Shown: piece by piece, positions 1 through 38,094 of the stretch
Position numbering within the stretch: position 1 is the stretch's first letter
How the letters are laid out: each line of letters begins with the position of its first letter
Assembly (NCBI GenBank): GCA_963693365.1
Contig: CAVNZM010000033.1
Span: 1-49,678 of the forward strand
DNA length: 49,678 nucleotides
From: Amoebidium appalachense
Lineage: Eukaryota > Protista > Ichthyosporea
Reading direction: 5' to 3'
Translations under genes and position numbers: made by a program
The notes under the pieces: generated by a model
Told to the model about the DNA's origin: nothing
Seen by the model: only the letters and a program-made list of their open reading frames with translations
The model's database searches: none

Positions 1-2
1 AC

Positions 3-2817
3 AACGGCAGTGGCTTTGACTTCCACTTTGTGACCAAGAGGGTGGTGGGCAGCCAGGACTACGTGTACGTGCCCATCATGGCCAACAGCAAGATCAAGTC
101 CTGCCGTATACGCCACTACGTCAAGAATGCCGGTGCACCAGCAGCCCCCGTGCCCATGCGGGTGGATGGTGATGGTGATGGTGATGGTGCCGATGGCCAT
201 GGCCATGGCCACGATGGCAATGGCCATGGTGATGGCCATGGTGATGGCCATGGTGATGTGCAGCAGCAGGCAGCAGCAGCAGCAGCAGCAGGCACCGGCC
301 GGAAGAGGAGGCACGGGGGGCAGAGGGGGGACGGCAGCCGCACGACGGTGGTGGAGCTGACGTTCGTGGACACCCTCAACTTCCTCACCATGTCGCTGTC
401 GGACGCCGGCAAGGCCATGGGGTGCCAGGAGACGAAGGGCCACTTCCCCCACCGTGCAGCCACCTTTGCCAACTTCAAGGCCGGCCACATCCTCTTCCCC
501 GGGCCCGAGGACTTTGGGGCCCAGGACATGAAGCCCAAGCAGCATGCTGCCTTCATGCAGTGGTGGCGGGAGGAGCAGGCACGGCTGCAGGGGCAGGCAC
601 CGGCGGGCACGTGCTACGACATTGCCCAGCAGTGCGAGGACTACTGTGTCAAGGATGTGGTGCTGCTGCAGCAGGTGGTCAAGGCCTTCATGTCGAAACT
701 CATCGAGCTGACGGGCATCGACCCCTTCACGTGCGTCACCCTTGCTTCCCTCGCCATGCACTTCTGGATCACGCAGGCCATGCCCAAGGACGTGGCCGTG
801 ATGCGTGACCAGACCATGGGCAACGTGAACAGCAGCAAGAAGGAGCAGGAGTACATCGACTACGTCACCCACGGCCTGGGGGTGGGGCCAGACGACGTTG
901 CACGGCACGTGGCCACCGGGTACGACCCCCACGGCAGGGCCACGGCCGATGCCAAGGCCACCCACGACGACGGCACGTGCACCCACTACTTCTTCCACGG
1001 GTGTGTGTTCCATGGGTGCCCCGACTGCAACAGGCACGAGGATCTGACGATGAGGGTGGTGAAGAGGCCGGCCAGGGAGGCCTACGACAGCACCATGGCC
1101 CACGAGAGGTACATCCGTGCCCAGGGGCACAAGGTGCAGAGCATGTGGGAGTGCAGGTGGGACAGGCTGAGGCAGAGCCCCGAGGTCAAGGCTGCCCTTG
1201 CAGCACAGGCGGCACGGAGGGAGGGCACCGGCAGGGTGGCCCCCGTGCCCACGGGCCCGGTGCAGTTCCGTGATGCCTTCTTTGGTGGCCGTACGGAGGT
1301 CATCACCCGTCACATCGAGGTCAAGGAGGAGGACTGGCCGGAGGCCGGGCTCAAGTACGTCGACGTCACCTCCCTCTACCCGTACGTGATGATTGACAAG
1401 TACATGCCGGTGGGCAAGTCACAGTGGTTCACGTCACTGCCCATCAAGACGGAGGACCACCCCACGGCCATCGTCACGGATGCCCAGGTGCTGAAGGAGA
1501 GGCTCGACAAGACGTGCCGTATGACCCCCGGCTCCCCCCAGGCCAGGACCAAGGGGTACTTTGGTGTTGCACGTGTGAGGGTGCTCCCCCCCAAGGACCT
1601 GTTCATCCCCGTGCTGCCTGTGCGTATGACGGGTGCCCAGGGGTACGACAAGCTGGGCTTTGTGCTGTGCCGGGCCTGCAGCAGCAAGGAGGAGGCCCGG
1701 GCCACCTGCATGGACGAGGACGGCAACCCCAGGGTACGTGAGCACACACTGTGCACACACACGGACGAGGAGAGGGCACTGGTGGGCACGTGGACGACGG
1801 AGGAGCTGAAGGTGGCCGTGCGTGATGGGTACACCATCCTCGACGTGTACGACGTGGTGCACTTCAAGAAACGCACCAAGACTTCGGAACCTCTTCCGGA
1901 AGTACGTGCAGACGTTCCTGAAGGTGAAGCTCACCAGCACCACCGTAGATCCGGCCGACATCCCCGCCCTCGTGCACCTGTTCAAGGAACACTACGGCAT
2001 CACGGTGGCCGCCCACGAGTTCGAGCCCAACCCGGCCCTGCGTACCATCAGCAAGCTGTTTCTGAACAGCCTCTGGGGCAAGCTGGTGCAGAGGGCAGGG
2101 CTGGACACCATCGAGTTTGTCGACGACGTCGACAGGCTGAGGCTGCTGGTGACGAACCCCAACCTGCTGGTGCTCGACGTCGAGCCCATCGGTGAGCAGA
2201 GGGTGGCCATCAAGTACCGGCCCAAGAAGGAGACGGCCCCACCCCCCTCCTACGCCAACATTGCCATCGGCACGTTCGTGACGGCCCATGCCCGGCTGCA
2301 CCTGTACGGGGCCCTCCGGTCCCTCTCCCCCCAGCAGGTGGTGTACATGGACACCGACTCCATCGTCTACCACTACGACAGCAGGGTGCCCCACCTCAGC
2401 CACAACATCGACTCCACCAACGGGGACTTGCTGGGCAACTGGAAGAACGAGACGTCGACACCCATCGTCGAGTTTGTGGGGGTGGCCCCCAAGACGTATG
2501 CCTACCGCACCCAGGACGGCAAGACCGACGTGAAGGTCAAGGGCATCACCCTGTCCCGCCGGGCGGCCGACATGGTGAACCTCCCCAGCCTGCGCATGCT
2601 GGTGCACGGCGAGCTGCCGAGTGTGAGCGTCACCAACCACCGGCTGCTGCGGGAGCCCGTGCCCGGGGTCCCCCACAACTACCACCTGGCCAGCAAGGAC
2701 CAGCGCAAGACACAGTCGGGGGCGTTCGACAAGAGGGGGGTGTTCGAGGCGGCCGACGGCAGTGTACGCAGCTACCCCATCGGGTGGGCGGCACCGGAGG
2801 GGAACCTGCAGTTTTGA
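3..2817 (+). CDS. pPolB: Protein-primed family B DNA polymerase, 5'-partial, one +1 frameshift near 1865-1890
   Basis: ExoII NGSGFDFHF at the window start, FVDTLNFL, KGHFPH, ExoIII YCVKDV, FFGGRTE, motif A DVTSLYP (ORF 30..2195). Motif B SKLFLNSLWGK, motif C YMDTDS and APKTY/KVKG are in ORF 1822..2817. The junction reads HFKKRTKTS/NLFRKYVQTFLKVK. Confidence 0.95.
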
Positions 2818-3279
2818 GTGGGGGGAGGGGGTAGGGGGGAGGGAGGGGGGTCAGTTAGGAGGTAGTCTAGCAGTGGAAAATTATGTGGTGTGTTTGTTAA
2901 CTTAGCATTAGAAGAAAGAAAAATGGGGTGCAGAGTGCACGGGCAGGGGGGTCACCGGCAGAAGAGGAAAAAGATGGTGTTTTTAGGCATACACCACGTG
3001 CACCGTATGCACGAGGGGAGGCAGCCAATAAATTCAGAGCTTAATGCAAAACCAAGCATGTCCAATGTGTCCTTCGGCAAAAGCAACACCAACACCGGAA
3101 CCATACACGTGTACAAGGGCGGGAGGCTTGCCAAAAAGAGCAGGCACCAGCACATATAAAAGGCACACACGTGTGCACAGACACGTCACTTTTTTCCAAC
3201 ACAAAAACAGTCAACATCACGAATTAGGTGAACTTCGGCCGAAACACACACACACACACACTGACACGGAAAAAAAAAA

Positions 3280-4168
3280 ATGGACGAAGACACGTTGCTA
3301 AGTATGGTGGCCAACACCACGGACCCTGAGAAGCTGCTAGACCTGTGCCCCTTCCTCTACGACATGTACTGCAACACCACCACACAGCCACGGCCACGGC
3401 CACAGGCACAAGGGTGCTGGTGGGCATACTGCAAGGAGAGGGAGACTTGCACGGGGGAACACGACGAATACGAGCACGACGGAGGGGACCAGGAGTACGT
3501 GTACGAGGAGGGGGGGAGGGGAGGGGGGAGGGGGAGGGGGAGGAGGAGGAGGAGGAGGACTGGGTGTACGACGGGAGGGGGTGGGGAGGGGCAGCGACGG
3601 GGAGGGGAGGAAGACGTATGAGGGGTGCACGGCCTTCTGGGACAGAAAGAGGTCACAGCCATACAGACACATTAACCACTTCAAGCAGCTGCTGCAGTCG
3701 GTGCAGGGCCTGAATGCGAGCATGGGTGACATGCAGGAGGGGGTGGTGGCAGCATTCAGGGGCGTGCAAGGCATAGAGAACGCCGACCAGGCAAGGAGGG
3801 TGCTGAGACAGAGCAAACTCACCCAACACTACACACGCGTGCCTTACATACTTAACAGGTTGTACGGGCACCCCCTCCCCAGGTTTACGTGCGAGCAGTT
3901 GGAGGTCTTGACGGGCATGTTTAAGTTTTGCTTGTCGTGGCACCGGAGACACAAGGAGGACACACGGAAGAACTTTGTGGGGTACCCCTTCCTGTTGGTG
4001 AAAATGGTAGGGTTAGTGCGTGGTATGGACGCGGGAGTAATAGCCAGGCTGGTGCCCACGGTCAAAAGCAAAGTGACTAGAGTAAAGAGCGATAGGGTGT
4101 GGGCACGGCTGGAGAGGGACCTTAAAAACTACCACATGCTAGTGGAACATAACATGTTCTGCCTGTAG
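3280..4168 (+). CDS. VLTF3: VLTF3-like (poxvirus A2-type) late transcription factor, frameshifted in G-rich tract 3510-3610
   Basis: YRHINHFKQLL, HYTRVPYILNRLYG, RKNFVGYPFLLVKM and KSDRVWARL match the VLTF3 pattern (YxRxNHF, RKNFxxYxYxL). The N-terminus is probably ORF 3280..3621. Confidence 0.8.
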
Positions 4169-4300
4169 GCGGGTAGCCAGGTGCTACCTGCTCTGCATTT
4201 AGAGACAACACTGTGCACAATAGAATGGGGTTGTGGCAGGCGTGGGGTGGTAGTGGGGGTGTGCCAGCACGTGCCCACACTACCGTCGACCCGCCCAGGT

Positions 4301-4492
4301 TTATTTGAACACCACAGGTGCCGTACGAATGGGTCTGTTGGCGTTGACGCCGGACAGTTTTACGGTGTAGTCCAGGGGACGTTGCCGAAAGTCCCGTATG
4401 GTGGACACGTCCATGACATTCAGGTTGTTGTTCTGTTCCGGGAAGATAAACGGCCTCTTGCGTGTGGGGGGCCCGCCGGGGTTGAGCTCCAT
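4301..4492 (-). CDS. Small hypothetical viral protein (63 aa)
   Basis: Co-oriented with the neighbouring minus-strand cluster, preceded by an AATATTGTGTG motif, stop within AATAAA. Confidence 0.45.
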   Translation of the reverse strand: MELNPGGPPTRKRPFIFPEQNNNLNVMDVSTIRDFRQRPLDYTVKLSGVNANRPIRTAPVVFK

Positions 4493-4531
4493 GATGGTGC
4501 TGCAGGCTGTTTACACTAGCACACACAATAT

Positions 4532-4753: not shown

Positions 4754-4784
4754 GTCTGCCGCCGCTGCTGCCTAATGACGTAGA

Positions 4785-7545
4785 TTATTTGCCGGCACCC
4801 TTCTTCCTCTTCTTCTTCTCCTTGCTGGCTGTCTTGGTGCGGTACACCCCACGGGCAGACTTAGGGACCGGGCCACCCTCGACATACCCGGCGGCATGGC
4901 TGTCCGGCACAACCCCTGGCCTGTGCACGTGTGCACGCACGTGCGGGTGGTGTGGGTGCATGGGCATGTCCCCCCTCCCGTAGTTGGCATGATGGTGCAC
5001 GGCCGCTGCCAGCCCAGGGGTGGCTGTGGGTGAAGGGGCACCGGTGGGGGTGGGCACGGGGAAGCTCGGACCATGTGGCCACGTGGGGGTGCCTGTGGGG
5101 GTGGGGGTGAGCAGTAGCCGTGGCTGTTGGCGTGTACGGTAGGCGTGGTACGCCAGTGTTGTTACCTTTGGTAGCAACCTTCAGCATGTGCAGAGCTACC
5201 CCCTTTGCTACCTTCTGGAGTTCTCCGAGGGTGTCACGGTTCCCCAACACGGCCTCTTGCAGGTTCGGGCCACCGCCACCAACACCGCCGTCAGCAATAG
5301 CCGGCTGGCCACCGTCACCATGGTGGCCCCTTACCACGTTGCCCAGAAGCTGGCGTGCTGCCCCCATGAACACCCCCCTCACGTAGGAGGCCACGGCAGG
5401 GTGGTCCCACCCCGTCTGGTCCTCCCTCACCCGCCTTGTGAACTCCTCCGGGCTCTCCCGCCCGAGCATGTCGAGGTGTTCCCGCAACCCCTGCCAAAAG
5501 GGACTCAGCACCCCCTCCTCGTCGGGTCGGGCGGGGGACGTGGGGGGTCTCCACACAGCGGCAGCACCCCCTGTTTGCGAGACCGCCCTCTTGGTGCTTG
5601 GGTACGTCGTCACGTCACCGTCATAGCCGATGGCTGCTGGGGTGGGGCTGGGGCTGGGGCTGGGGGTGGGCGTGGTGGTGGGGCCGTCAATACCAAGGGG
5701 CAGGTCTGAAAGCTTCCCCCCTCGCACACGGTACTCATACAGGGCCTGCCTCGAGGCCTTGGGCTCTTCCTTCTTGAGTCCCCAAGCTACGAATTTGATG
5801 GCTTGGTACGGGGCGAAACCCTGCAGAGCTTGATAATACTCGGGGTGTTTGTCCAACAACTCTTTCTCAAAGTCCCACATGGGCTCCTGGAACTCGTAAT
5901 TGGCTGGTGCCAGAGCGTTTGCGACGTCCAAGAGCGTGACGTTGGACAAGGGTAGTTTCATTTTCCACACATCCAGCTCGTTGGTGGGCATCGGTGTAGG
6001 TGTGACTGTGGGGTGGGCCTGGGACTCGGGCGTTGGGGGCGCAGGCACGAGGGGGAAGGCTTCGGCCCAAATTTGCAACGGCCACCCGCCAGACTTTGGC
6101 GGCTTAGGGGGTATCATGGCCGGCGGGTCGGGTCCACGGTAGGCAGGGGACTGGGGGTACGGCGTTGGTGCCGGTTGTAGTGGTGGGGGGAAGGGTATGG
6201 CCGGGGCAGTCGGCCTCCGCCGTGGCCCGTTACGACCCATGGGCAGGCCGGTACCGTTCCCTTTGGCGGGCGACTGTGGCGGGGGTTGAACCGTCTGCGG
6301 CGGGAAGGGTATGGGTGGTCCGTCCGGCTTGGCCGGCAGGTGGGGGGCCATGGGGGTCTGTGGGTTGAGCTCCGGGGGGAAGGGTACGGGGGTGGCCGGT
6401 TCCTTGGGTGCCTTCCAATACAAGGACTCTGGCGGGGTGGGCATGGTGGGACCGGTCATATGGGGTGCCAAGACCCCCACATGGAGTGGGGAGGGGCGGT
6501 TGGGGTCGTTGCCGGCCAGGGTAACCGGCCGTGGACGTGGCCAGGCACTGGTCGTTGGCTCATCGTCGTCGTCATCGGGAGGCGTGTGTAGAGGTTGTAC
6601 CGGGGCTACGGTGGGTCCGTGGGCTACCGCAGGCTCCACAACGTCGACGTGCTTGCTTGCCACTGCCACCGGCAGTGACCCAGGACGGGTTGTGCTGGTC
6701 CGTGTCACCGGCAGACCGGTGCCTTTCCCTTTGCCGGGCAGCCTCGACCGGTCTGGCTTGGACGTCGGGAGGGGCCGGCCCGTCGAGGGGGGAAAGGGTA
6801 TGGGTGGACCGTTGGGCTTGGCCGGCAGGTGGGGTGCCGTGGGAGTCTGTGGGTCAAGCTCTGGGGGGAAGGCCACGGGGACACGGGCCGGGGGAGGCAC
6901 CTCCCATTTCAGGGACTCTGGCGGGGTGGGCATGGTGGGGCCGGCCACATGGGGCGCCAGGGGCCCGAAGGAGGGTGCGGGCTCGTTATGGGGCCGGCGG
7001 CGTGGTGCGTTTGGGGCAGGGGTTTTGGGCGGTGGAGGTGGCTTGGGAGGTGGGGGGTACGGTATGGCCGGAGCCTGGCCCGGGGGTGTGGCCGGGACAG
7101 GTGGGGGGAGGGGTGGGGTCGGCAGGGGGGCCACGTCGGGCAAGGGGGGCGGAGGTGCCCTAGGTCTGTTCCACACGTACGTGCTACCGTACTTGTCACC
7201 CAAGTGCTCATAGCCAGGGTGGTAGGCTACGTCTACCTTCACCACCTCCGGCAACCGACCACCCCACCGCTCCAGTGGCTGGTTGGGGTCCAGATATGTG
7301 TGGGCCTTCTTGAAAAATGCCTCAACCCCACCCCTGACCAACACCTTGTAGCTATGTCGGAGTAGTGAAAGTTTGGGAGTCCCAAAGTACCCAACGGTGG
7401 TCTCCCGCCACTTGCCTGAATGCACGTCTTCCGGGTACTGGTACTTGACAGTGTACCTGCCCAGGGGCCAAACCCTACTCGTCTCAGAGTCCAAGTCATC
7501 AGCGTGCCCATGAGGCTGCTGCACGTTGGGGGACATGGTGGACAC
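4785..7545 (-). CDS. Large proline-rich protein with an internal ~58-aa duplication; C-terminus probably frameshifted near 5100-5180
   Basis: 894-aa ORF 4861..7545. Overlapping ORF 4785..5177 ends in a basic NLS-like tail KEKKKRKKGAGK and may be the true C-terminus. Confidence 0.7.
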
Positions 7546-7569
7546 GGTGTTGTTGTAAACTGGTGTTTA

Positions 7570-7947: not shown

Positions 7948-8851
7948 ACTTGCTAGGTGGCCCACACAATTTGCACCTTTGAGTTATTAAGCCTCCACCG
8001 TCACCTCACGGGCACCGGACAGCACCAGCACGTTCTCGTGGTGCACGAAGGTGTCGAGGGTCAGGTCGTCCTGAACCGTGGGTTCCCCGACCCCGGCGGA
8101 GAACTTTTCCGTGTTCAGGTGCAGCAGAATGGGGGTGGCGTCGGAGCTGGTGTCGAGCCCAGAGTACAGGTCACGGTCCCTCTCGAGGTCCAGGGCGATC
8201 ATGAACTGCTTGTCGGGCCAGGACGTGGAGTTGTACATGCAATCGGCCGTGACGTCACCCAAGAAGTAGAGGGCCTTAGCCAGCTCGGCCCATGCCTCGG
8301 CGCAGTTGTTCTTCGACACACGAATTTCGTCGAGGGGCTTCTGGTAGGGGCCTATCTTGATCTGGTAGCTCGTTATGTTGCTGCGTTCCGACCTAAACGA
8401 CTCGTAGCCGGCCTGGGCCCACGTGTTGCCGTTACGAACGAGGGAGAGCAGGGACTTGACGTTTCTCCCCCGGAACGAAATGTGCAGGTCGGCAGGGCTG
8501 CCCCCCTTGACGTAGCTCTGGAAGTGGGTGAACGTGCTGTAGGGAATGTACACGTTCTTCTCCATCAAGGCCTTTTCGAAGCCGGCCGTGTAGACGGCGT
8601 TCCACTCGATGATTTCGCAGTGGAGGACGGGGTTGATGATCTCGTAGGCGACGTCCTTGAGCCAATTCTCGTTCTCGGTGGGCACGTACAACACTTGGTT
8701 TGCCTCACCCAACGACAGCTCGATCTGCACCTCCCCCATGTACGACAGCGGGAGGTACCGGCCGGACCGCATGAGGCCGAGCTTGAGCTGGTGAATGTAG
8801 GTGAAACCGTCGGTGGCGTCGATTTGGGCCTGGATGTTGGCCTGGTGGGGA

Positions 8852-9776
8852 TGTTGTAATACGTAGTATTTACATATGGTAAGATCTTCTCAGTTTGTGT
8901 TATGTTTCAGTTCATATGCTTAGTGTAAATGCCACACTCCTATTATGTAAAGTGTAGCATCGATCTCCGATATGCTTGTATACTTGTAATCGTGTTGTAT
9001 CGGCTTTAATCGTGTATTGTAATATCGATTAGAATATTTATATGTGTGTACACGGATCCACCCACTCAGGGAGAGACGTGTACATGTTCGTGTGTACATA
9101 AATATCTCTGGTTATAGTTATGCTATTACTATCTTGTTTGTTGATCTGTGCTCTCTTTTCCTTCCTCTTTCTCCTTCCTTATTTTCTTTTCTTTCTCTCC
9201 TTGTCTTCATGTGTATAATCGTATTTCTTTTCTACTAATATATGTTAGGTAGATTTGTGTTACTTAATACGTGTTCATTGGACGGTAACACACTTAGGCT
9301 ACACTTAGAATAGCATGTGTGTTTAGACTTCATTAATTCACTTTAGTTTTCATGTGTTGCCGGGCTTTAACCAATCATCAAGGTTAAGTGTGATATGTCT
9401 GAGTCTTTGCAGTATGTCATAGGTTAGAACTTCCTTGATGATGACACGAGTTGATCCTAACTAGTGTCTGTGTCCTATCGTGTACGCCTCCGCGTACCGG
9501 ATCTCTCTGAAAGCAATTGGTTCTTAGTGATTGGTTTCTATTAGAGATGGATCTGATTTCCGACTGGTCGGAAATCATGTATGGATTGGACTTAGAGGAA
9601 TTTCAGGTATTTATTCGAAGATCAGAATAAATTCAGTTCAGTCGTGTCTAAACATTGATGTCTGTTGTGTACACTGCTCCGATCGTTCCGTGTTTTGTTG
9701 TTGTGTGTGTCTGTGGTGTTTTCACACTGCACCACTGTGTCTCTGCTTACATCCCAAATACTTATAGAAATTAACA
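8852..9776 (+). repeat. 5' LTR of Copia copy 1 (925 bp)
   Basis: Near-identical to the three other LTR copies; TG...CA termini. Confidence 0.97.
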
Positions 9777-9790
9777 GGTTATGCAGCCCT
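9777..9790 (+). promoter_or_regulatory. Primer-binding site, half-tRNA-iMet (Ty5/copia) type
   Basis: GGTTATGCAGCCC immediately after the LTR, resembling GGTTATG(A/G)GCCC of Ty5 and Drosophila copia. Confidence 0.7.
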
Positions 9791-9838
9791 TTTGTACGCT
9801 CCCTACACACATCTAGAACTCGCGCTCGTTTTTCAATC

Positions 9839-12800
9839 ATGGATCCAAACAAAACTGGCGTAAACAAAATCACCATGTGGAAAGGTGAAGGGAAGACTGG
9901 TCCCGATAGCAAAACTACCTATTTTCAATGGGAAATCATTTTTCTCGGCATGATGACCGGCACTAAAGGTGTCCGACTCGTGGATGTTGTCCTTGCTGAC
10001 AACTACGTCCCCCCTACCACCGTCGCGGTTGACGGTGAACCCCCCTTCTATGGCTACGGCACTACCGCGGAACTCAAAGAGGCCCGCAATTGCCTCCTGC
10101 TCCATATGATACAGAACATCGACCCTTCCGTCCTCACCACCGTTGCCCAGTACCGTATTGGCATGGACCCTGAACGGGCCATGTGGAAATTCCGTCAACA
10201 CTATCTCCAAGGCAAACCCGATCAGATCCGCATCCTTCACCGTCAGTGGGATGCCTGTGCCCTTCAGCCCGGTGAATCATTCACCACCTACCTGAGCCGT
10301 CTGCAGACCATCGTGAACCAGCTCCAGTCTCTCCAAGATGAGTCCATTCACTTCACTCGTCTAGCTGAGAAGTTCTTCAATGAACTCACCACCAGAGACG
10401 ACCTCACCCCTGAGTTCAATCGTCTTATCGAAGACTATCACTTCGGTGATAAGCTATTCCCCGACTTCGAGTCCCTCCATAACCACGTCAAGGGCATCGA
10501 GTTACGTCAAGACCTCAAGATGCAACTCCGGAACAACCGTGCCCACCGTGCCTCCAAGTCCAGCATGGCATTAAATGCCAGTGCTCCCCCCCGTGATCTT
10601 CCTCGCCGTGACTTACGCACCCGACTTGACCGTACCTCTGGCACGGACCTCCGAACTCGTCTCTCCCGTCAGCACACCCGATCCCGTTCCCCCCACCGGC
10701 CTGCCTTCCGGTCCACGTCTCGTTCCCCCAGTCGTTCCCGTTTCTCGGGTTCCCGTCGTTCTGATTCCCCGGCTCGTTCTAACACCCCGTCCGTGAAAGA
10801 ATGCTCCTACTGCCACGAGCCTGATCACACGATCATCGATTGCCCTGAGCCGAAATGCCGTATGTCCAGACACAACCGTTCCCGTCAAGGCAGTGAGAAA
10901 TCTGTCTCCTTTGCTTTCTCGGCATACAATGCTAGCTCCGTCCGCGTGTCCTCCGACCCTGCCTGGGATTCCGGGTGCAACATGACTGTTTGCCCCACCC
11001 GTGAGTTCTTCCATGACCTCACTCCCCTTCCGACACCGACTCCCGTTGCTGCCTTCAATGGCACCCCCGTCTTGGCCACTCACACCGGCCATATCGTCAT
11101 CAACACCACCACCGACCATGGCACTACCACCCTAACCATTGAAGCCTACTACACCCCGTCTGGCCAAGCCTTCCTCATTTCAACATCCCAAGCTGCTGCC
11201 GAATACATCAAGGGTGATTTGAACGATGCCTCCACTCCGTCATTCCTCTTCGACCGACTCACCGGCCGTCATCTCGTCAACCTCCGTCTACACAACGGTC
11301 TGTATTACTTCAAGGACTACACCATTCAACCACCCACTCGTCCTGTGGCTCTGGCTGCCACTACCAGTGTTAACCCATCCATCTGGCACCATCGTCTGGG
11401 GCACCGAGCTATGACCAGCATCAAGGACATGGTGAAACACGACCTTGTTATTGGTCTCCCCTCCTCTGTCCTCGACTGTGATGTTCCTGATTGTCATGGC
11501 TGCATTATGGGTAAGACCACCAAGGCTCCGTTCAGGGGTGACCGTCCTCACTCCAACATCCCCGGTCATGAATGGCATTGGGATTTTTTTGAGCCTACCA
11601 CAACATCGTACGGAGGTTCCAAGGTTGCTCTCGTCACTGTCTGCCGTGCCTCTGGCCTCGTCAAGATCTACCCGATGGCCGACCGTACCACCACCCTGGA
11701 TATTCTCACAGCTCACACCAACCTCGTTGCCACCCATGCCCCCTCCAAAGTTGGTGTTTACCACTTCGACTCCGGCTCTGAGTTCACCTCCAAGGATACC
11801 CGTGCTTTTTGCCTCTCCCAGGGCATCAAGGCCAGCTATGCTCCGGTGGACTGCCCTCAACTGAACGGCTATGTTGAACGACGTATGCGGTTCCTCCAAG
11901 AGATTGTCCGTTGCCTCCTCCATCAAGTCCAAGATCAGTCTCTGTCTCCCAAACTGTGGGCTGAGGCCCTCCAACATGCCGCCTACATCATCAACGTCAC
12001 CCCGTCCACGACTGCCAATGGTCGTACACCATTCGAGGTTTTCTACGGTGTCAAGCCCGACATCTCCGAGCTCAAAGTGTTCGGTTGCCCTGCCTACACT
12101 CACGTGCCAGCCTCTAAACGGAACAAGCTGGCCCCCACCGTCAAACTCGGCATGTATATCGGCTATGATCTTCAATCACACTGCCACCGGATCTTCAATG
12201 CCACCACCCATCGTGTCGGCCTCTTCCGTGATGTGATTTTCGACGAATCAGCTTATCTCCCGTCCGACATTCCATCAACCCTTCCGACCCCCGACACCAC
12301 TGCTACCTCGACCACCCCACCCCCCACAGTTGACACTGAAGATGATGTTTGTCTGGTGTACTCTGGCCCCCCTCCTGCCATCGTCGTTCCCCCGACACCC
12401 CCCCCCCACCGGCCCCCCTGCCCCCGTGCCCGTCCAGCCTGCCGACCCTCATCCTGGCCCTGGCAACGTCACACCCATCCGACCCGGCTCCCCCGACAAC
12501 TTCCACTCGGCCCCGTCCAGCCCGGAGGTTGCCCCCCCCTGCACTTCCGAACTTCCAAGTTCCCCCCCCACCGTCTCCACCTACCCCGGTTCCTGCACCC
12601 CGTCGTTCTGCCCGTCTCCAGGGCAAGGTTGGACTTCAAGCCACCACCACCCTGCCAGTCCCCCCCGGTCCCCCCATCAACATCGACCAACTACCCAAAC
12701 TTGTCCGTCAACTCTGTTCCGGACCCAATGGTGATCAGGTCAAGTCAGCCCTGACTGCTGAGTATCAAGCCTTCGTCGACAAAGACATCTTTGAACTTGT

Positions 12801-14248
12801 TGACCCTCCCCCTGGTGCTAACATCGTCGGCTTCAAGTGGATTGTCTCCGAGAAAACTCTCAACTCGGCTGGTGACACCAAGATCAAGGCACGTGGTGTT
12901 GCTCAAGGCTTCAGTCAGCAATACGGTGTTGACTATGAGTTGATTGAGAGCCCTGTCATCCGTCCGGCTGCTCTCCGTGCCATCCTAGCTCTGGCCGTTG
13001 TTGAAGGTCATGACATACATCAACTCGACGTGTCTACGGCCTTTCTCAACAGCCCACTCACCGAGACCATCTACATGAAACAACCCCCGGGATTCATCAC
13101 CATGGCCACACTTGGCAAGGTCTGGAGACTCAAGAAAGCCCTGTACGGCCTCAAGCAAGCCTCCAAGGCTTGGTACGACTTCCTCGACGGCATTCTTCTT
13201 GCCCATGGCCTGACCCGTACTAAGACCGACCCGTGCATCTACCTCCGGTTCTTCCCCAACAACGATGTGGTACGGGCTGGTAACTACGTCGATGACTCCA
13301 CCATCACCAACACCCGGGGTTCTACTGCTGCCAGTGACCTGGCTGCCCACATCAGCAAGATGGCCAGCTGTCGTATGAGTCCATTTGACCGTATGCTCGG
13401 TGTTGATTTTAATCACTCTGATCCCCATCACCTCCACATGCACCAGAGGTCTTACATCATGGATATCATCCACGACTTCAACCTCACCGATGCCAAGTCC
13501 AAGTCTACCCCCATCCCTGCAGGCACCACCGTCTCCCTGGCTGATTGCCCCCCCCCAACCGTTCACCGTGCCCTACCGTGAGTTACTCGGCCGTCTCCTC
13601 TGGGTGGCACGGTGCACACGTCCCGACATTGCCTATGCCATCGGCTTCCTTGGTCGGTTCAGCACCAACCCCGGCAAGACTCACTGGGACCTTCTCCGTC
13701 GTGTGGCCCGGTACCTGCTCGGCACCATTGACCTTGGCATTGACTACAAGTACTCGGCCACCCAGTCCCCCATACTCGAATGCTACACGGATGCTGACTT
13801 TGCTGGTTGTGCCGACAGCAAGAAGTCTACCACCGGCTACATTATCGTGTTTGCTGGTATGCCCGTCATCTGGTACTCCAAGCTCCAGCCCATCACGGCC
13901 ACCAGCACCACTGAAGCTGAGCTGATTGCTCTCAATGCTGGCACCCAAGAAGTTGCTTGGGTCCGTGACCTCTTCAAGGAACTCGGCTGTCCCATGCTTG
14001 CTCCGACTCCGGTGTACTGTGACAACCAGTCGACCATTGCCATCGTCAACTCCACCGGCATCAAGCACCGTACCAAACACATTGCCGTCCGGTATCACAA
14101 CACCAAGGACTACATTGCCAGTGGGGACGTGGTTGTCCACTACGTTGAGTCAGCCCACAACTTAGCTGACATACTCACCAAACCCCTCCCCGGCCCGAGT
14201 CATGTCCACCATCGTGCTCGACTTTGTTTACCGGATATTGTGGATTGA
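9839..14248 (+). CDS. gag-pol: Copia gag-pol polyprotein, copy 1, broken by frameshifts in poly-C tracts
   Basis: Zinc knuckle CSYCHEPDHTIIDC, protease WDSGCN, WHHRLGH...CHGC, integrase HWDFF/FDSGSEF/NGYVERR, RT QLDVSTAFLN/LYGLKQA/YVDD, RNase H YTDADFA...ADILTK. Confidence 0.95.
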
Positions 14249-14673
14249 CCCGACCTACTTCAAGAGTGATTTTCTCATGTGTACTACTTACTTTATCAAC
14301 ATCATTATATCATATGTATTGCCTTTGTGGGTATGCCCACTTAGGGTTTATATATAAGGTTTGACCTGTACCATCACTCTACTCTATCTTTCACTGGTTT
14401 AAAACCCAGTTAATCAAACACCGCCTATACACGTTATATATATTCGTTGTTTTTGCCCCGGTTCCTTCCCCCCCCCCCCCCCCCCCCCCTTCCCCCCCCT
14501 TTCCCCCCCCCCCCCCTCCCCCCCCCCCCCCCCCCCCCTTCTCCCCCCCCCCCCCCCCCCCCCGGGAAAAGTACACACTTTAATTTTTTTTTTCCGTTTC
14601 TGTTCTCAAGTGGGGAGATTTCACTAGTTCAGTGGGGATATGATAACACAAACTTCAAAGTCTTAAGTGGGGA

Positions 14674-17301: not shown

Positions 17302-17305
17302 AAAA

Positions 17306-17542: not shown

Positions 17543-17566
17543 GTCGGTTGCCGTGTCTGTAATACG

Positions 17567-18244: not shown

Positions 18245-18300
18245 CGTAGGAAGGAAAAATTCGTGTGCCCCCACTAGTAGCAAGCTACCGGTGCACGGCC

Positions 18301-18591
18301 ATGGCTACCCCTAGGAGCACGAAAAACCTGCCGTCGGCGTACTCGTCGCCGTTTACGTTCGACGACTACCTCGAGTTCTACATACGACACGGCACGGACA
18401 AACAGTTCGACCCGGCCGACAAGGCCGGGAAGAAGCCCGAAAACAAAATCGAAAAAAAATTCCTGAGATTGAAGAAGAGGGTGCCGGTCGACCGGCAGGA
18501 GGAGCTGAGGAAGGTGCTGGAATACGAGGCCGATCTCGATGCCCGCATGCTGGCCCACATACAGAAGCAGGAGGGAGAGACCAACATCTAA
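18301..18591 (+). CDS. Small charged hypothetical protein (96 aa)
   Basis: GCCATGG start, coding-like composition, stop overlaps the convergent penton stop. Confidence 0.6.
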   Translation: MATPRSTKNLPSAYSSPFTFDDYLEFYIRHGTDKQFDPADKAGKKPENKIEKKFLRLKKRVPVDRQEELRKVLEYEADLDARMLAHIQKQEGETNI

Positions 18592-31139: not shown

Positions 31140-32064
31140 TGTTGTAATACGTAGTATTTACATATGGTAAGATCTTCTCAGTTTGTGTTATGTTTCAGTT
31201 CATATGCTTAGTGTAAATGCCACACTCCTATTATGTAAAGTGTAGCATCGATCTCCGATATGCTTGTATACTTGTAATCGTGTTGTATCGGCTTTAATCG
31301 TGTATTGTAATATCGATTAGAATATTTATATGTGTGTACACGGATCCACCCACTCAGGGAGAGACGTGTACATGTTCGTGTGTACATAAATATCTCTGGT
31401 TATAGTTATGCTATTACTATCTTGTTTGTTGATCTGTGCTCTCTTTTCCTTCCTCTTTCTCCTTCCTTATTTTCTTTTCTTTCTCTCCTTGTCTTCATGT
31501 GTATAATCGTATTTCTTTTCTACTAATATATGTTAGGTAGATTTGTGTTACTTAATACGTGTTCATTGGACGGTAACACATTTAGGCTACACTTAGAATA
31601 GCATGTGTGTTTAGACTTCATTAATTCACTTTAGTTTTCATGTGTTGCCGGGCTTTAACCAATCATCAAGGTTAAGTGTGATATGTCTGAGTCTTTGCAG
31701 TATGTCATAGGTTAGAACTTCCTTGATGATGACACGAGTTGATCTTAACTAGTGTCTGTGTCCTATCGTGTACGCCTCCGCGTACCGGATCTCTCTGAAA
31801 GCAATTGGTTCTTAGTGATTGGTTTCTATTAGAGATGGATCTGATTTCCGACTGGTCGGAAATCATGTATGGATTGGACTTAGAGGAATTTCAGGTATTT
31901 ATTCGAAGATCAGAATAAATTCAGTTCAGTCGTGTCTAAACATTGATGTCTGTTGTGTACACTGCTCCGATCGTTCCGTGTTTTGTTGTTGTGTGTGTCT
32001 GTGGTGTTTTCACACTGCACCACTGTGTCTCTGCTTACATCCTAACTACTTATAAAAATTAACA
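31140..32064 (+). repeat. 3' LTR of Copia copy 2 (925 bp)
   Basis: Preceded by AAGTGGGGA and followed by TSD GTTTT. Confidence 0.97.
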
Positions 32065-33169
32065 GTTTTTCATGCCACGTTACTCAAAGGCAAACAGGGG
32101 GTACAAGGGGGGATTGAGCATGATTGACATGAACACGAGGCAGGCAACGGTCGTGCCCATAAAGACAAAGAGCTCAGGGAGCGGGAAGAACGAGCACCTC
32201 ACCATCAGCAACGGGCCGGAGATGCAGAGGGCTGTGCACAAAGCCTTAAAGACCATCAGGGAGATGAAGGACGAAAGCAACAAAGGGGAGGAAAACCTAC
32301 AACCTACAGAGGTCAAGCAGATCTTTACGGACAAGGGCACGGAGTTCCTCAGCAATACAATGAAAAAGTACTACGATCAACACGACATCACCATCCTCCC
32401 TCAAAAGCCAGGCCGAAAACCACGCAACGTGGCCATGGTAGAACGGTTCCATCGCACCCTAAAGCAAGGATTGAGCAAGTACATGGAGGCCAACGACACG
32501 GGCAAGTGGACGGGGGAAGGGTTGGAAAACGTGTTGGAGGATTACAACGACACGTAGCATGGTTCGATCGGTAGAGAGCCCAACAAGATGACCCAGAGGG
32601 CCGAACGGTGGAACAGCATCAACACGTGGCTGGAGAACAGGAAGCAAAAAGGTAAGCTACGTGCCAAGATGGGGCACACGGAGGGCGTGCACGTGCGTGC
32701 ACTCAAAAAGCCAAAGGGACCGTTTGAAAAGGAGGGAAGAAACTGGTCCAAGGACGTCTACACGCTCGCCTACAAGGATGCAAGTGGGTGGGCGCTACGC
32801 AACGCGGCTACAGGGGAGATGAGGAAACACACGCCAGGCCTACGCTACGCTTGGCCAGACACCATGCTAAAGAAGGTACCACCTACCAGCGTGTCTGTAC
32901 CGCCCAGCAGCGGGATGCGTGCAGCTCGCAAGGAGACAGCCAAGGAGAGGGCTCGCGAGGAGCTGGCGTTTGAAGGGCGCGAGCTGGTGCGCCAGAAGGG
33001 CACGCGTGCACAAGCCCAAAAGGAAAAGGAAAAACGAAAGGCACAGGAACTGAGAAAACTGGAGTTTGCCCACCAACAGGAGCAAACGGGTCTGCGTCGC
33101 AGTGAAAGGCGTGCACGCCGCTAGGTGTGACCTGCCCATTCTGGAAAAACCATCCGTCTTGAAAAAAAA

Positions 33170-33483: not shown

Positions 33484-34029
33484 ATGGGGCTGGGCAGCTG
33501 CTGCGGGGTGTACAAGGTCACACAGGACAAGAGGAAGGCCGGAGTGGACACTGACAAGGTGCAGACACCAGCATGGGTGCTGGATGCACTCGAAAAGGAG
33601 TTTGGCGCACTCAATGACCCCTGCCCCATCACCTGGCGGGAGGGGGAGGACCCTTGCGCACTCACAGACGACGACGTGTGGTCCACCGAGAAAATAAACT
33701 ATGTCAACCCTCCCTTCTCTGAGATTCCCCCATTTTTACGCATGGCCATACGAATGTACATATCCAAGGGTAGAAAGAGCGTGCTGCTCGTGCCTGCACG
33801 CACGGAGGCACGCTGGTTCCATGACCTGGCCTTCAGGTACGCCGCAGAGATACGCATCCTGAGGGGTAGGATCAAGTTTGAGGGGTTCAAGAGGCCATCG
33901 CCAGAGGGCGTGTGCCTGCTTTTGTTCACAGAGCCTCAGCCTGTCGGTGGCCCGCGTGTAGTGTCGTGGATGCCTGAGGCATACCCGCGCAGCTCAAAGG
34001 CAGGGGCCGTGTTGGGGCTGGATTTCTAG
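33484..34029 (+). CDS. dam: Phage-type DNA N6-adenine methyltransferase (Dam, PF05869-like)
   Basis: QTPAWVLDALEKEFG..NDPC, catalytic YVNPPFS, VLLVPARTEARWF, EIRILRGRIKF. Confidence 0.88.
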   Translation: MGLGSCCGVYKVTQDKRKAGVDTDKVQTPAWVLDALEKEFGALNDPCPITWREGEDPCALTDDDVWSTEKINYVNPPFSEIPPFLRMAIRMYISKGRKSVLLVPARTEARWFHDLAFRYAAEIRILRGRIKFEGFKRPSPEGVCLLLFTEPQPVGGPRVVSWMPEAYPRSSKAGAVLGLDF

Positions 34030-34465: not shown

Positions 34466-35047
34466 ATGGGGGTGTCATCGCAAGGCAGGAGCGGCAACAC
34501 GCGTGTCATCTACGTGCAGAACCGGCCAAACAAGGCCTCAGAGGTAGCCAAGTGGGTGGGGGCCCTGGCGGGCGGTGCTGCCTTGGGGGCAGGGGGGTAC
34601 TATGCATGGAAGCACAAGGGGGACATTGCGAGGGGGGTGGGCAACTACATGTACAACAAGGCTGCGGATGCTGCCACCTACACTGCAGGGAAGGCGGGGG
34701 AGGCGGGGGGGACGGTGTTCAAGGGCCTCAAGGGGGTAGCGCGTGCCACAGGCGATGCTGCCATGCAGGGCACGCAGCGTGCAGGGCAGGGCGCGCAGAA
34801 TGGTGCATTCAGTGCGTGGAAGACCCTGAGGAATGGCACGAGGGATGCGGGCAACTACCTGCTGCACAACACCCAGGATGCGTTGGGATATGGTCCTTAT
34901 AACTTGAATGCTGCAGGCACACGCACGGGAAACAGCTACGAGTGGAGAGGGGGCGGAGGGGGCGATGCGCAGGTGCTTGTCGGCGGTAAGCCCTACATCT
35001 GGCCGCCAGCCAGGTCGCCAAACGTATCGGGACGCGGCATCCTCTAA
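34466..35047 (+). CDS. Gly/Ala-rich protein with one hydrophobic segment (193 aa)
   Basis: CACCATGG start; WVGALAGGAALGAGGYYAW followed by amphipathic-looking G/A/K-rich helices. Confidence 0.65.
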   Translation: MGVSSQGRSGNTRVIYVQNRPNKASEVAKWVGALAGGAALGAGGYYAWKHKGDIARGVGNYMYNKAADAATYTAGKAGEAGGTVFKGLKGVARATGDAAMQGTQRAGQGAQNGAFSAWKTLRNGTRDAGNYLLHNTQDALGYGPYNLNAAGTRTGNSYEWRGGGGGDAQVLVGGKPYIWPPARSPNVSGRGIL

Positions 35048-35332
35048 TGGAACCTTCCGTTTATGGTAAGTGTGCAGGGAAAAACCGTTGGCGGGCGGTG
35101 CGAGCGGCCAATCAAATTTTGTAGAATTTGTTGACTTGCATTCCATTGGCGACTCCCCTGCGCTCCTATTGGACGCCTAGGGCAACAGGAGTCACCGAAT
35201 TTTGGAGCACGGTAGCGTGTGTGCACCGGAGGGCACAAAAGCCACCTGCAAACGTTCCTTCTTCAAACACTTTTTCTTATATTCTAAGCCACTCTAGCCT
35301 GGTCTTTTTGCAAGCAGCGAACTTTGGAAACC

Positions 35333-36481
35333 ATGGCAGACCTCTCCTTCCTGCCCCCTCTAGATCTAGACGATGCTGATGTTCTTGCTGCCGCCGCAGC
35401 AGCCATTTCTGTGCCAGCCCGCAGGCCTCCTCCTGGCCGCACCTTCTCCTGGCATCTCAAAGATTTGGATCTTGACACTGTTCTGCTGTGACCCTTCTAC
35501 GCATCCTACCGCACGCTTGCTGAGGGGTATGCAGCACAGCCCAGTGTTTCCGCCAACGCAGCGTCCTTCCTCCTCTCCGCCAAGAAAGGTGACTTCTTCG
35601 CTGGCTATGATGCAGGGGGCGAAGTCTACTTCCAAAAACGCTTCACGGGTCTAGATGACTTTGATGGGGCATGGCTCCCTGAGATGCTGGTGCGTGGTAC
35701 CATCTCTGAGCCTGCAGAACTGGCTGAACTGCACGGCAAGTCGCTTTTGGCAACACTCGCGTGCCGCAACGCCCTCATGCTCAAGGGGGTGGCTGCTGCT
35801 GTGGTAGACATCCTCCTACCGCAGTTCACAGAGCATGACAGATCCACTAGGCACAAGGTAGAGACAGACCCTCAGTTGGTTGGCGACTACATGCAGAGGT
35901 ACCTGGAGGAGATAGAGGCCAACTGGGAGCCCATCGTCGGGATGTGCAAGGCAGGACTCACTCCCCACAGGGAGAGAGAGGTGGCCCGCCACCTGGCTCG
36001 TGTTGTTGCTGGCTTCCTGCAGACCATGGTGGCCACTGCAAAGGCAGCCAAGTTGAAGTCCACGCCCCTCTTCAAAGGGGTCGCCATGGATGTCCTCCAT
36101 GACATGCAGGCATTGCTGCGTGGGGTTGCGAATGAGCGTATGTATGGTGCAGGTGAGAAGATTGTGTTTGCAGGGCTGATCAAGAAAAACATCCACAAGG
36201 AGGCACCATCACGGCGCAAGTCCGGCACGTTCATCGACATTGCCCCCAAGGAGAAGGAAAACCTTGCCCCCCTCCGCAGCAGCAGCACCAACAGCAACAC
36301 CCCCTACAACAACAACAACAACATCATGACGGTCGGTGCCCCCTACTTCTACGGTAGGACCCGGGTGCCTAACTTACTCAGTCCGTACCTCAGCGGCACC
36401 GCCCCTCAAGACTGTGAACCAAGGCTACATGGGCTAGTGCACAGGATAGGGGGGCAGTGCCCTAAACTTTGCCATTTTTAA
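35333..36481 (+). pseudogene. Hypothetical helical protein interrupted by an in-frame TGA at 35489..35491
   Basis: ACCATGG at 35333 (MADLSFLPPLDLDDAD...TVLL*PFYASYRTLAEG...) is in frame with ORF 35684..36481. Confidence 0.55.
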
Positions 36482-36541
36482 TTTTTTTAGTAAAGTACCT
36501 TAAAGTTTGAGCATGCCATGGCCTCATTAACATAGACACCG

Positions 36542-36970
36542 TTGTGATTTGTGTATACATAGTGGGCAGTGCCCTTTATTTTCACGTTTTTTTTCTTCTT
36601 CTTTTATACAAAGAATTGAACCGCCGGCAAAAATAAACTTTTGTTTTTTTACGAAAGTTCCAAGAAAAAAAACAGAGCACAAGCTGAAGACTACCATGGT
36701 GCATTGCACACGTGTGCCTGCACGTGTGCGTGTGTGTGTGCATGTGTGTGCATGTGTGTGCATGTGTGTGCCAAAACACTCTAACAAAAATCTATGAAGA
36801 TTTTAACGATAAAAAATAAAAAAACTTTGTGATCTGTGGATGCATTGGGCGGAGCCCTTTATTTTCACGTTTTTTTTTCTACAAAGAAAACCGACGGCAA
36901 AAAGATCCAAGGAAAAAAAACAGAGCACAAGTTGAAGACTACTATGGTGCATTGCACACGTGTGCCTGCA

Positions 36971-37013
<43 letters not shown>

Positions 37014-37096
37014 ATGTGTGTGTGTGCATGTGTGTGCATGTGTGTGTGCATGTGTTTGTGCATGTGTGTGTGCATGTGTGTGTGTGGGTGTGTGTG

Positions 37097-37153
<57 letters not shown>

Positions 37154-37164
37154 ATGTGTGTGTG

Positions 37165-37204
<40 letters not shown>

Positions 37205-37205
37205 T
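36542..37205. repeat. Two degenerate direct repeats (from about 36542 and 36828), each ending in a (TG)n/TGCATG microsatellite
   Basis: CCCTTTATTTTCACGTTTTTTTT...AAAACAGAGCACAAG(C/T)TGAAGACTAC(C/T)ATGGTGCATTGCACACGTGTGCCTGCACG is present twice. Confidence 0.85.
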
Positions 37206-37475
37206 CTAAACGTTGCTGTTTGGCCCGTGGGGTGGCTCTGCCACAACCACTTGGTAGACCTTCGCGGTCTCCGATGTTAAATCTCAAGTATCAATCTACT
37301 TAATAATTACTAGGCTAAGCCTGGCTGTGCCAGGGCAACGCCTCAATAAAGAACGGTATGCAAAATAACAAGCCTGTGCCTGTGCAATAAATCTCCAAAG
37401 CAAACATCTTGCAAAAAACAACGTCGGTACGTGTTTGTTTGTGTGTGTGTGGTCGCGGCGGCCGCCTGTGTACCT

Positions 37476-37685
37476 AAGGCGTCCAATAAGAGACCCAGAT
37501 AGACCGATCCGGGCGCTCATTGGACGCCTTGGGGATGGAATGTGCTGTCCTTAATGCTCATTGGACGCCTTGTGCGGCAATTTGCTTTTTTGAGCCGAAT
37601 TATCATTGGCCGCCCTGCGCATCCGTAATACCATTGGACGCCTTGTACATGGAATTCAGAATTCGAATTCTTATTGGACGCCTTG
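37476..37685. promoter_or_regulatory. Cluster of ATTGGACGCC(TT) motifs (CCAAT-box-like)
   Basis: Forward copies near 37519, 37560, 37605 (variant), 37633 and 37673, an inverted copy near 37478, and one further copy near 35168. Confidence 0.55.
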
Positions 37686-38094
37686 CGCAAACCTTCGCAT
37701 TCCTTTGATCCGCACTTGTGTACGCACCACATGTACGCGTACACGTACGCGTACACGTGTTCCGCCCTCTCTCTCTTTAATTGATTAATCATTTAGTTAA
37801 AACCACGTGCTCTGCACGTGTTTTACACACACACACACACACACAGTGTGTGCACGTGCTCATGTACATATATCCACCCATATCACATATATCCCATATC
37901 GCGATATGTGTACACAGATATCACATATCTCATATTCACATATCCCATATCCTAAGGGGTGCGGGACCGCGTGAATGTGACGTCACTTGTGACGTCACCA
38001 TTCACGGGGTGCCCCCTTATTGTAGTTTCATCTCAAAGCCAACCATTAAAATATATTGCATTAGTCCTCGATCTTCATTGGCCCACATCTATAT

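What the first reader, a model, noticed from the sequence alone, without database searches (positions are those of the whole stretch)
1..37950. Endogenous Polinton-like virus with an unusual mosaic gene set
Seen: pPolB, rve integrase, ATPase, MCP, penton, VLTF3, Dam methylase, three fibre paralogues and a 7-TM protein in about 24 kb or more once the Copias are removed. Known: Maverick/Polinton elements pair pPolB with rve integrase and usually an adenain-type protease, whereas many PLVs use other replication and integration genes. Inference: a Maverick-type replication/integration module is joined to a PLV-type capsid module plus an NCLDV-type transcription factor, with no protease visible in the window, so this may be an undescribed lineage.
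Basis: partly seen in the sequence, partly recalled or inferred. Interest (0 to 1): 0.85.

Follow-up and report, generated by a model that had tools for sequence, protein, structure and literature searches.

The report
Decayed Polinton-like provirus in Amoebidium
This is a broken, integrated copy of a small DNA virus in the protist Amoebidium, with its capsid and integrase genes each split by a retrotransposon; it very likely belongs to the 'adintovirus' family already published for this host, although its capsid looks like that of other ichthyosporean Polinton-like viruses rather than of animal adintoviruses.

Summary
The gene list is real: pPolB, VLTF3, a double-jelly-roll MCP, A32 ATPase, probable penton, three paralogues sharing an N-terminal motif, a 6-7-TM protein, rve integrase and Dam, about 24.5 kb once two near-identical Copias are discounted, open at the left. 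The flanking host gene is 100% identical to an Amoebidium parasiticum protein. Sarre et al. 2024 (PMC11244446) already describe about 30-kb Amoebidium 'adintoviruses' with VLTF3, Dam, both capsid proteins and PolB (44 in the reference genome), so 'undescribed lineage' is not supported. Maverick-like PolB plus rve joined to a non-Maverick capsid, and VLTF3 in polintoviruses, are also in print. This copy is very likely dead: Copias split MCP and integrase, the integrase has an internal stop, and pPolB and penton change frame; public runs hold Copia-free forms of the MCP gene. One modest addition: the MCP's nearest named relatives are in other ichthyosporeans (Sphaeroforma, Abeoforma, Pirum), apparently Bellas 2023 cluster MMPC_3, outside the Maverick/adintovirus group, so the 'adintovirus' label likely fits only the polymerase. 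No protease was found, but the left end is missing.

The parts
3..2817 (+). Protein-primed DNA polymerase B, 5' end off the window; frame change near 1880; about 150-aa insert between exonuclease and polymerase parts
   Evidence: PF03175; 7 bases near 1880 absent from the contigs of 4 of 4 runs; insert absent from the 7 environmental pPolBs that aligned on both sides of it; likeness of the insert to a VSR nuclease is recalled, no Pfam or PDB hit
3280..4168 (+). VLTF3-like late transcription factor; the ATG at 3280 and the Pfam-matching part are in different frames across a G-rich tract (real or assembly error, untested)
   Evidence: PF04947 E 6.6e-10; frames; tract skipped
4861..7536 (-). Long proline-rich ORF (891 aa), no family
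7987..8846 (-). Major capsid protein, C-terminal half
   Evidence: 62% to P0001; 32% to Sphaeroforma SARC_11267, E 7e-42
8852..15598 (+). Copia retrotransposon 1 inside the MCP gene; 925-bp LTRs differing at 2 sites; 5-bp target duplication
   Evidence: junction without it seen in 3 of 4 runs, and a diverged form in all 4
15604..16478 (-). Major capsid protein, N-terminal half
   Evidence: 49% to P0001
16492..17271 (-). A32-like packaging ATPase; two extra residues just before Walker B compared with 13 relatives
   Evidence: PF04665; alignment; the 6 bases are absent from half to two thirds of laid depth, so not necessarily private to this copy
17636..18591 (+). Two small ORFs (202 and 96 aa), no family
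18890..19977 (-). Probable penton (minor capsid protein), frame change near 19414 in a C-run (possibly an assembly error)
   Evidence: Atlas lead PF21507; 2 bases absent in 4 of 4 runs; frames
20036..21505 (+). Fibre-like protein 1 (489 aa) with 4.4 copies of a 42-aa repeat
   Evidence: no PDB or PHROG fibre hit
21637..23691 (+). Paralogue 2 (684 aa), shares only the N-terminal motif
23651..24502 (-). Multi-pass membrane protein (283 aa, 6 clear hydrophobic segments), no family
24467..25042 (+). Paralogue 3 (191 aa), shares only the N-terminal motif
25064..25328 (+). rve integrase, N-terminal piece
   Evidence: translation; the frame runs on into the 3' piece beyond the target duplication
25329..32064 (+). 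Copia retrotransposon 2 inside the integrase gene; 99.6% identical to Copia 1; 5-bp target duplication
32070..33124 (+). rve integrase, C-terminal piece, in-frame stop at 32555-32557
   Evidence: the stop was not checked against reads
33484..34029 (+). Dam-family adenine methyltransferase, open frame
   Evidence: PF05869 E 1.6e-13; phrog_111 E 4e-24
34466..36481 (+). Two ORFs of no family (193 aa; about 380 aa with an internal stop); membership of the virus not shown
36482..37952 (.). Non-coding, repeat-rich stretch; presumed right terminal region (a TIR cannot be shown without the left end)
37953..38019 (.). Strong DNA hairpin at the boundary (virus end or small MITE, undecided)
   Evidence: z -7.5, 0 of 200 shuffles; no second copy in the window
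38095..40420 (-). Host gene with saposin-A repeats and introns (flank; 5' extent approximate)
   Evidence: PF02199; last exon 100% identical to a EukProt Amoebidium parasiticum protein

Best explanation
The region is one integrated copy of a Polinton-like DNA virus in an Amoebidium chromosome, broken by two Copia insertions and very likely a member of the family that Sarre et al. 2024 called Amoebidium adintoviruses. An intact member would integrate with its rve integrase, copy its linear genome with the protein-primed polymerase, and fill a double-jelly-roll capsid (MCP, penton, probably fibre-like spikes) with the A32 ATPase (inferred from established Polinton biology). VLTF3 would drive late genes, most likely in a cell co-infected by one of the giant viruses that also endogenize in this host (inferred, about 50%). 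This copy cannot make a capsid or an integrase on its own (shown: both genes are split) and is probably methylation-silenced (inferred from the paper). Its capsid belongs with a group of ichthyosporean endogenous viruses rather than with animal Mavericks (shown by nearest named relatives; formal placement untested).
For: Host: flank exon 100% to EukProt Amoebidium_parasiticum, next hits Creolimax and Sphaeroforma (3 hits in all). CpGs in the CGC/GCG context, the one Amoebidium methylates most, are depleted relative to other CpGs in all three Copias (ratio 0.03-0.06) and in the virus core (0.16-0.69 in 11 of 11 segments left of Copia 2), against 0.58-3.78 in 36 environmental loci, which are mostly AT-rich and so imperfect controls. 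Published gene set matches: VLTF3, Dam, minor and major capsid, PolB, about 30 kb, some copies degenerating. Multi-copy family: 15 of 23 listed runs hold half or more of the sampled words; laid contigs show a near-identical and a more diverged form, and joints lacking Copia 1. Capsid fold. MCP relatives named in the collection are from Sphaeroforma, Abeoforma and Pirum (3 named organisms among the 16 MCP hits looked up), and the window's half groups with the Sphaeroforma protein in an 8-row clade, SH-aLRT 97 (quick tree).
Against: The paper's figures, coordinates and sequences were not visible, so identity with one of its 44 insertions is not shown, and the passages read do not mention an integrase. 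The left end, TIRs and target duplication are missing. The two trees are quick searches with long branches and no Maverick references, and they disagree about L096: near in the ATPase tree (93), outside the clade in the MCP tree. The last 4 kb of coding sequence has the opposite CpG pattern, so the right part may have a different history. Helper dependence has no direct evidence.
Confidence: 0.88

Rival explanations
1. It is a true adintovirus/Maverick (Polintoviricetes) with a divergent capsid, and its maturation protease lies in the missing left end.
For: pPolB and rve define Polintons; Sarre et al. found adintoviruses as closest polymerase matches; an adintovirus protein is rank 13 in the viral fold search; the left end is unseen.
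Against: Named MCP relatives match, by eye, the Creolimax MCP of Bellas 2023 cluster MMPC_3, tabulated under 'Iterative HMM searches' and not under 'Maverick-Polinton-Adintovirus'; Maverick MCPs are almost all metazoan; 0 of 50 family members hit any Pfam capsid model; environmental ATPase relatives carry PLV-type genes such as Tet, Prim-Pol and SF1 helicase, and no maturation-protease family among 207 ORFs scanned.
Confidence: 0.12
2. It is a separate, unreported virus family in Amoebidium, distinct from the published adintovirus clades.
For: Several clades of such elements coexist in Amoebidium (four reported); sequence identity to the published set was not testable.
Against: All five marker genes named in the paper are present, and the family is abundant in the runs, so a methylation-guided manual survey would hardly miss it.
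Confidence: 0.07
3. The region is a composite: a virus core (1 to about 32.7 kb) joined to a right arm (integrase tail, Dam, last ORFs) from a different element.
For: Sharp switch in CpG context near 32,700: 331:985 on the left, 144:79 on the right, Fisher p 1.6e-29.
Against: The switch falls inside one integrase reading frame, and Dam is part of the published gene set, so any joining would predate the family's spread.
Confidence: 0.15

Closest known systems
Amoebidium 'adintoviruses' (Sarre et al. 2024, PMC11244446)
   Same: Host genus; VLTF3, Dam, minor and major capsid, PolB; size compatible with about 29-30 kb; multi-copy with several subtypes; decaying copies.
   Different: Nothing shown to differ. 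The passages read do not mention integrase, fibre paralogues, the membrane protein or capsid phylogeny; figures were not visible.
Ichthyosporean endogenous MCP cluster MMPC_3 (Creolimax, Sphaeroforma; Bellas et al. 2023, PMC10120064 Tables S2, S4, S5)
   Same: MCP family: 32% identity of the window's C-half to Sphaeroforma SARC_11267, which matches the Creolimax MMPC_3 protein by eye.
   Different: Amoebidium is not found in the stored part of those tables (0 hits; file cut when stored); gene content of those elements was not seen.
Maverick/Polinton = adintovirus (Polintoviricetes, Groups 1 and 2)
   Same: pPolB, rve integrase, A32 ATPase, double-jelly-roll MCP, penton; a nuclease-like insert in pPolB is known from some Polintons (10.1101/2023.08.22.554363).
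   Different: Protist host; no Ulp1/adenain protease seen in the window; MCP relatives outside the Maverick group; VLTF3 and Dam present.
NCLDV-related PLVs (Zephyrvirus VC123/VC126, Alpenseevirus; Bellas and Sommaruga 2026, 10.64898/2026.06.19.733378)
   Same: VLTF3 in part of the group, pPolB among replicases; the nearest environmental ATPase (L096, 38%) lies beside VLTF3 and an MCP of the same broad family.
   Different: No large lipase ORF here; Zephyrviruses have no known endogenous form; group assignment needs their HMMs, which were not available.
MELD viruses of Blastocystis, algae and fungi (Starrett et al. 2021, PMC8502044)
   Same: Adintovirus-like PolB and integrase joined to virion proteins unlike those of adintoviruses; VLTF and fibre genes appear in figure legends.
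   Different: Different hosts; sequence relationship not tested.

Membership tests
Amoebidium 'adintoviruses' (Sarre 2024) | Integrated in an Amoebidium genome | tested here: met
   Flank exon 100% to EukProt Amoebidium_parasiticum; contiguous with the element in the window
Amoebidium 'adintoviruses' (Sarre 2024) | VLTF3 + Dam + minor capsid + major capsid + PolB | tested here: met
   penton support is moderate
Amoebidium 'adintoviruses' (Sarre 2024) | About 30 kb with terminal repeats when complete | tested here: inconclusive
   At least 24.5 kb without Copias, left end off the window; no genome held
Amoebidium 'adintoviruses' (Sarre 2024) | Hypermethylated in non-CGC/GCG context; sequence match to a listed insertion | not testable with these tools
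   No methylome; the supplement text seen holds legends only
Polintoviricetes (Maverick/Polinton/adintovirus) | pPolB | tested here: met
   PF03175; subtype not placed
Polintoviricetes (Maverick/Polinton/adintovirus) | rve integrase | tested here: met
   Weak Pfam rve plus PHROG transposase hits; gene broken
Polintoviricetes (Maverick/Polinton/adintovirus) | Ulp1/adenain maturation protease | tested here: inconclusive
   No protease family in 142 of 147 frames of 80 aa or more (the other 5); 63 frames of 60-79 aa not scanned; left end missing; several ORFs unannotated
Polintoviricetes (Maverick/Polinton/adintovirus) | MCP within the Maverick Group 1/2 supercluster | tested here: inconclusive
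   Leans against: named relatives are ichthyosporean, apparently MMPC_3; 0 of 50 Pfam capsid hits; no Maverick reference was compared directly
Adintovirus as proposed (Starrett 2021) | Animal host | tested here: not met
   Host is an ichthyosporean protist
Polinton-like viruses, broad sense | Double-jelly-roll MCP + A32 ATPase + penton in a 15-45 kb element | tested here: met
Polinton-like viruses, broad sense | Assignment to a named group by the Bellas 2026 MCP profiles | not testable with these tools
Virophages (Virophaviricetes) | Virophage-type MCP and cysteine protease | tested here: inconclusive
   Sputnik Z 19.6 and mavirus Z 18.3 rank below PBCV-1 Z 26.9; no Sputnik MCP Pfam hit; leans against
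Mriyaviruses | HUH endonuclease, VLTF2, Mriya48; no integrase | tested here: not met
   An integrase is present, whereas Mriyaviruses lack one; no HUH hit; Mriya48 and VLTF2 not specifically tested

The most novel reading that the evidence does not exclude
Amoebidium's 'adintoviruses' are the best-preserved members of an unnamed, protease-less, ichthyosporean-wide lineage of Polinton-like viruses (Amoebidium, Sphaeroforma, Creolimax, Abeoforma, Pirum) that took a Polinton-type polymerase and integrase, uses its own VLTF3 to plug into the late transcription of the host's Medusavirus-like giant viruses as an inducible virophage, and has purged CGC/GCG from its core to dodge the host's methyltransferases.
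Probability: 0.2. Interest if true: 0.65.

Novelty: already known. Interest (0 to 1): 0.3.

Why it matters
As a discovery it adds little: the family, its host and its unusual VLTF3 and Dam genes are published. The useful refinement is taxonomic. If the capsid belongs to an ichthyosporean PLV group, Amoebidium does not extend true adintoviruses beyond animals, and close unicellular relatives of animals share their own lineage of integrating DNA viruses. Amoebidium grows axenically and responds to 5-azacytidine (PMC11244446), so helper dependence and the role of VLTF3 are directly testable there. The CGC/GCG depletion in mobile elements is a possible sequence-level answer to a context-specific methylation system.

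Tried and rejected
No genome is held for the window, so the left end, TIR and target duplication stay open. Single-sequence folding of P0001 failed (pLDDT 30); the alignment-based model was used. The MCP profile found nothing by sequence in the PDB. Locus searches in viral contigs found no relative with the MCP half, the close-MCP alignment, two pPolB pieces or the last ORF. No RNA holder was listed, which says nothing on expression. Reads were laid only on 1-19,900; the integrase stop, Copia 2 junction and right end are unchecked against reads. The VSR-like reading of the pPolB insert got no Pfam or PDB support. A protease motif scan gave one chance-like match in an antisense frame. The careful ATPase tree did not finish; only the quick tree is cited (59 rows: loci under 8 kb were left out except a hand-picked few). 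Fold-search rank was rejected as a way to place the MCP, because most Polinton and PLV capsids resemble NCLDV capsids. L096's VLTF3 is only weakly similar to the window's (29% over 69 aa, E 0.002), so shared VLTF3 ancestry is not shown. Four look-ups of earlier scan findings gave nothing on this genome or sequence. Considered and rejected: contaminating free virus (host Copias with target duplications sit inside it, and a host gene flanks it); giant-virus fragment (pPolB, rve, small size); Mriyavirus (integrase present).


Full report
Observation. The ORF map and Pfam confirm pPolB (PF03175, two frames, running off the left edge), VLTF3 (PF04947), an A32 ATPase (PF04665), Dam (PF05869) and a weak rve hit. 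Two Copia elements, 8852-15598 and 25329-32064, are 99.6% identical over 6,748 bp, have 925-bp LTRs differing at 2-3 sites, and each carries a 5-bp target duplication, so both are recent. Copia 1 splits the capsid gene: the pieces at 15604-16478 and 7987-8846 align end to end with one full-length relative, P0001, at 49% and 62%. Copia 2 splits the integrase, which also has an in-frame stop at 32555. Subtracting both leaves 24,461 bp with an open left end.

Capsid module. A profile-free search with P0001 found 276 representatives at E up to 0.001. A model built on 124 of them (pLDDT 74, pTM 0.74) matches double-jelly-roll capsids: PBCV-1 Z 26.9, rmsd 3.2 over 357 residues; faustovirus Z 26.2; Sputnik 19.6; mavirus 18.3. 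This shows the fold, not the group. None of 50 family members scanned (of 124) hits a Pfam capsid model. The penton call rests on an Atlas lead to Sputnik minor capsid PF21507 and on position. The three 'fibre' genes share an N-terminal motif; only the first has a coiled-coil-type repeat, so fibre function is inferred. The membrane protein has six clear hydrophobic segments and no family. No protease family appears in 142 further frames of 80 aa or more.

Host. The exon at 38098-38739 is 100% identical to a EukProt Amoebidium parasiticum protein; the only other hits are Creolimax and Sphaeroforma. Independently, CpGs in the CGC/GCG context, which Amoebidium methylates at about 70% against 20% elsewhere (PMC11244446 section 6), are depleted in the three Copias and the virus core but not in 36 environmental loci.

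State of this copy. Contigs of four public runs laid on 1-19,900 show joints lacking Copia 1 (3 of 4 runs for the near-identical form, 4 of 4 for a diverged form), and lack the extra bases near 1880 and 19414 in 4 of 4 runs; the 6 extra bases in the ATPase are absent from half to two thirds of depth. The family is therefore multi-copy with at least two subtypes, and this copy has private damage; the small indels may partly be assembly errors. The right half was not checked against reads.

Relatives. Of 106 loci fetched by ATPase similarity, 18 carry an MCP hit to the family profile, 8 a pPolB hit and 1 a VLTF3. L096 (38% ATPase identity) has VLTF3 and a family MCP; L106 has rve, a pPolB-like gene, ATPase and a family MCP; others carry Tet, Prim-Pol or SF1 helicase; none of 207 ORFs scanned from 20 of these loci hits a maturation-protease family (most ATPase, pPolB and MCP ORFs were left out of those scans). 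In a quick ATPase tree the window groups with L096 at SH-aLRT 93 on a long branch. In a quick MCP tree its C-half sits in an 8-row clade (97) with a Sphaeroforma arctica protein, without L096. Among 16 MCP hits looked up, the three that name an organism are Sphaeroforma, Abeoforma and Pirum, all ichthyosporeans. Bellas 2023 tables list a Creolimax/Sphaeroforma MCP cluster, MMPC_3, under 'Iterative HMM searches', apart from 'Maverick-Polinton-Adintovirus'; its printed sequence matches the Sphaeroforma hit by eye. Neither tree holds a Maverick reference. The pPolB carries an insert of about 150 aa missing from the environmental pPolBs; its likeness to the VSR nuclease of some Polintons is recalled and unconfirmed.

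Mechanism. Shown: an integrated element with replication, integration and capsid genes, several of them broken. Inferred from established Polinton biology: rve-mediated integration, protein-primed replication, ATPase-driven packaging into a double-jelly-roll capsid. Inferred with less support: VLTF3 links late transcription to a co-infecting giant virus (Sarre et al. raise the virophage idea; about 50%). Dam's role is open; an adintovirus Dam gave no 6mA signal in E. coli (10.64898/2026.05.21.726589).

Comparison with the literature. Sarre et al. 2024 describe compact Amoebidium insertions with VLTF3, Dam, minor and major capsid and PolB, about 30 kb, 44 in the reference genome, four clades across isolates, VLTF3 probably taken from a giant virus (seen: passages, section 6, supplement legends; no figures). 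Starrett 2021 reports the same kind of mosaic in Blastocystis (passages and section 3.4). VLTF3 is reported in coral polintoviruses (PMC11131425, one passage) and Zephyrviruses, and module swapping is called common (Bellas and Sommaruga 2026, parts 1-4 of 5; supplements closed). Also seen as passages: PMC10120064 (plus section 9 and table rows from a file cut when stored), PMC11071308, PMC11502894, PMC13696692 and 10.1101/2023.08.22.554363. I found no paper placing the Amoebidium capsid with other ichthyosporean elements or reporting CGC/GCG depletion in its mobile elements (the one listed paper, PMC12344493, was seen as a listing only); closed supplements and unheld papers may contain both.

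Verdict. The capsid affinity and the CpG-context pattern are modest additions. Interest 0.3.

Noticed in passing
window 9839-14248, 26316-30723, 46264-49366: All three Copia elements almost lack CGC and GCG (observed/expected 0.04-0.08) while other CpGs are in excess (1.4); the host flank at 38-41 kb shows no such contrast (ratio 1.03). Possible avoidance of Amoebidium's CGC/GCG methylation by mobile elements.
   Followed up: partly
window about 32,700: Sharp switch in CpG context inside the integrase gene: CGC/GCG-poor to the left, CGC/GCG-rich and otherwise CpG-poor to the right, through Dam and the last ORFs (331:985 against 144:79, p 1.6e-29). Unexplained.
   Followed up: partly
window 37953-38019: Near-perfect DNA hairpin with TGACGTCA boxes at the virus-host boundary, flanked by TA; either a small MITE or the element's end.
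   Followed up: partly
window 35160-35180 and 37478-37690: A 10-bp word occurs six times, once inverted, suggesting subterminal repeats of a separate DNA transposon spanning the last ORF.
   Followed up: no
window near 1880 and 16890: The small insertions in pPolB and the ATPase look like short inverted duplications of adjacent bases, as left by transposon excision or end joining (by eye).
   Followed up: no
window 33125-33470, 41420-41560, 42390-42530: Three stretches rich in CCGACCCG-like words that resemble DNA-transposon ends (by eye).
   Followed up: no
window about 44,600-49,678: A third, more distant Copia (67% to the first two over the RT region), itself interrupted by another insert near 45,470-46,160.
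   Followed up: no
L096:2710-10657: AT-rich IMG/VR contig with VLTF3 (plus A2L zinc ribbon), a family MCP and the closest environmental ATPase; a candidate Zephyrvirus-like relative.
   Followed up: partly
L045:2-1678, L078:2-2219, L083:910-1683, L060:4064-5454: PLV-like contigs carrying Tet/JBP dioxygenase, TET-associated or other glycosyltransferases (next to pPolB in L045, L078 and L083), suggesting a DNA base-modification pathway.
   Followed up: no
window 38095-40420: Host protein built of saposin-A repeats, with close relatives found only in ichthyosporeans.
   Followed up: partly
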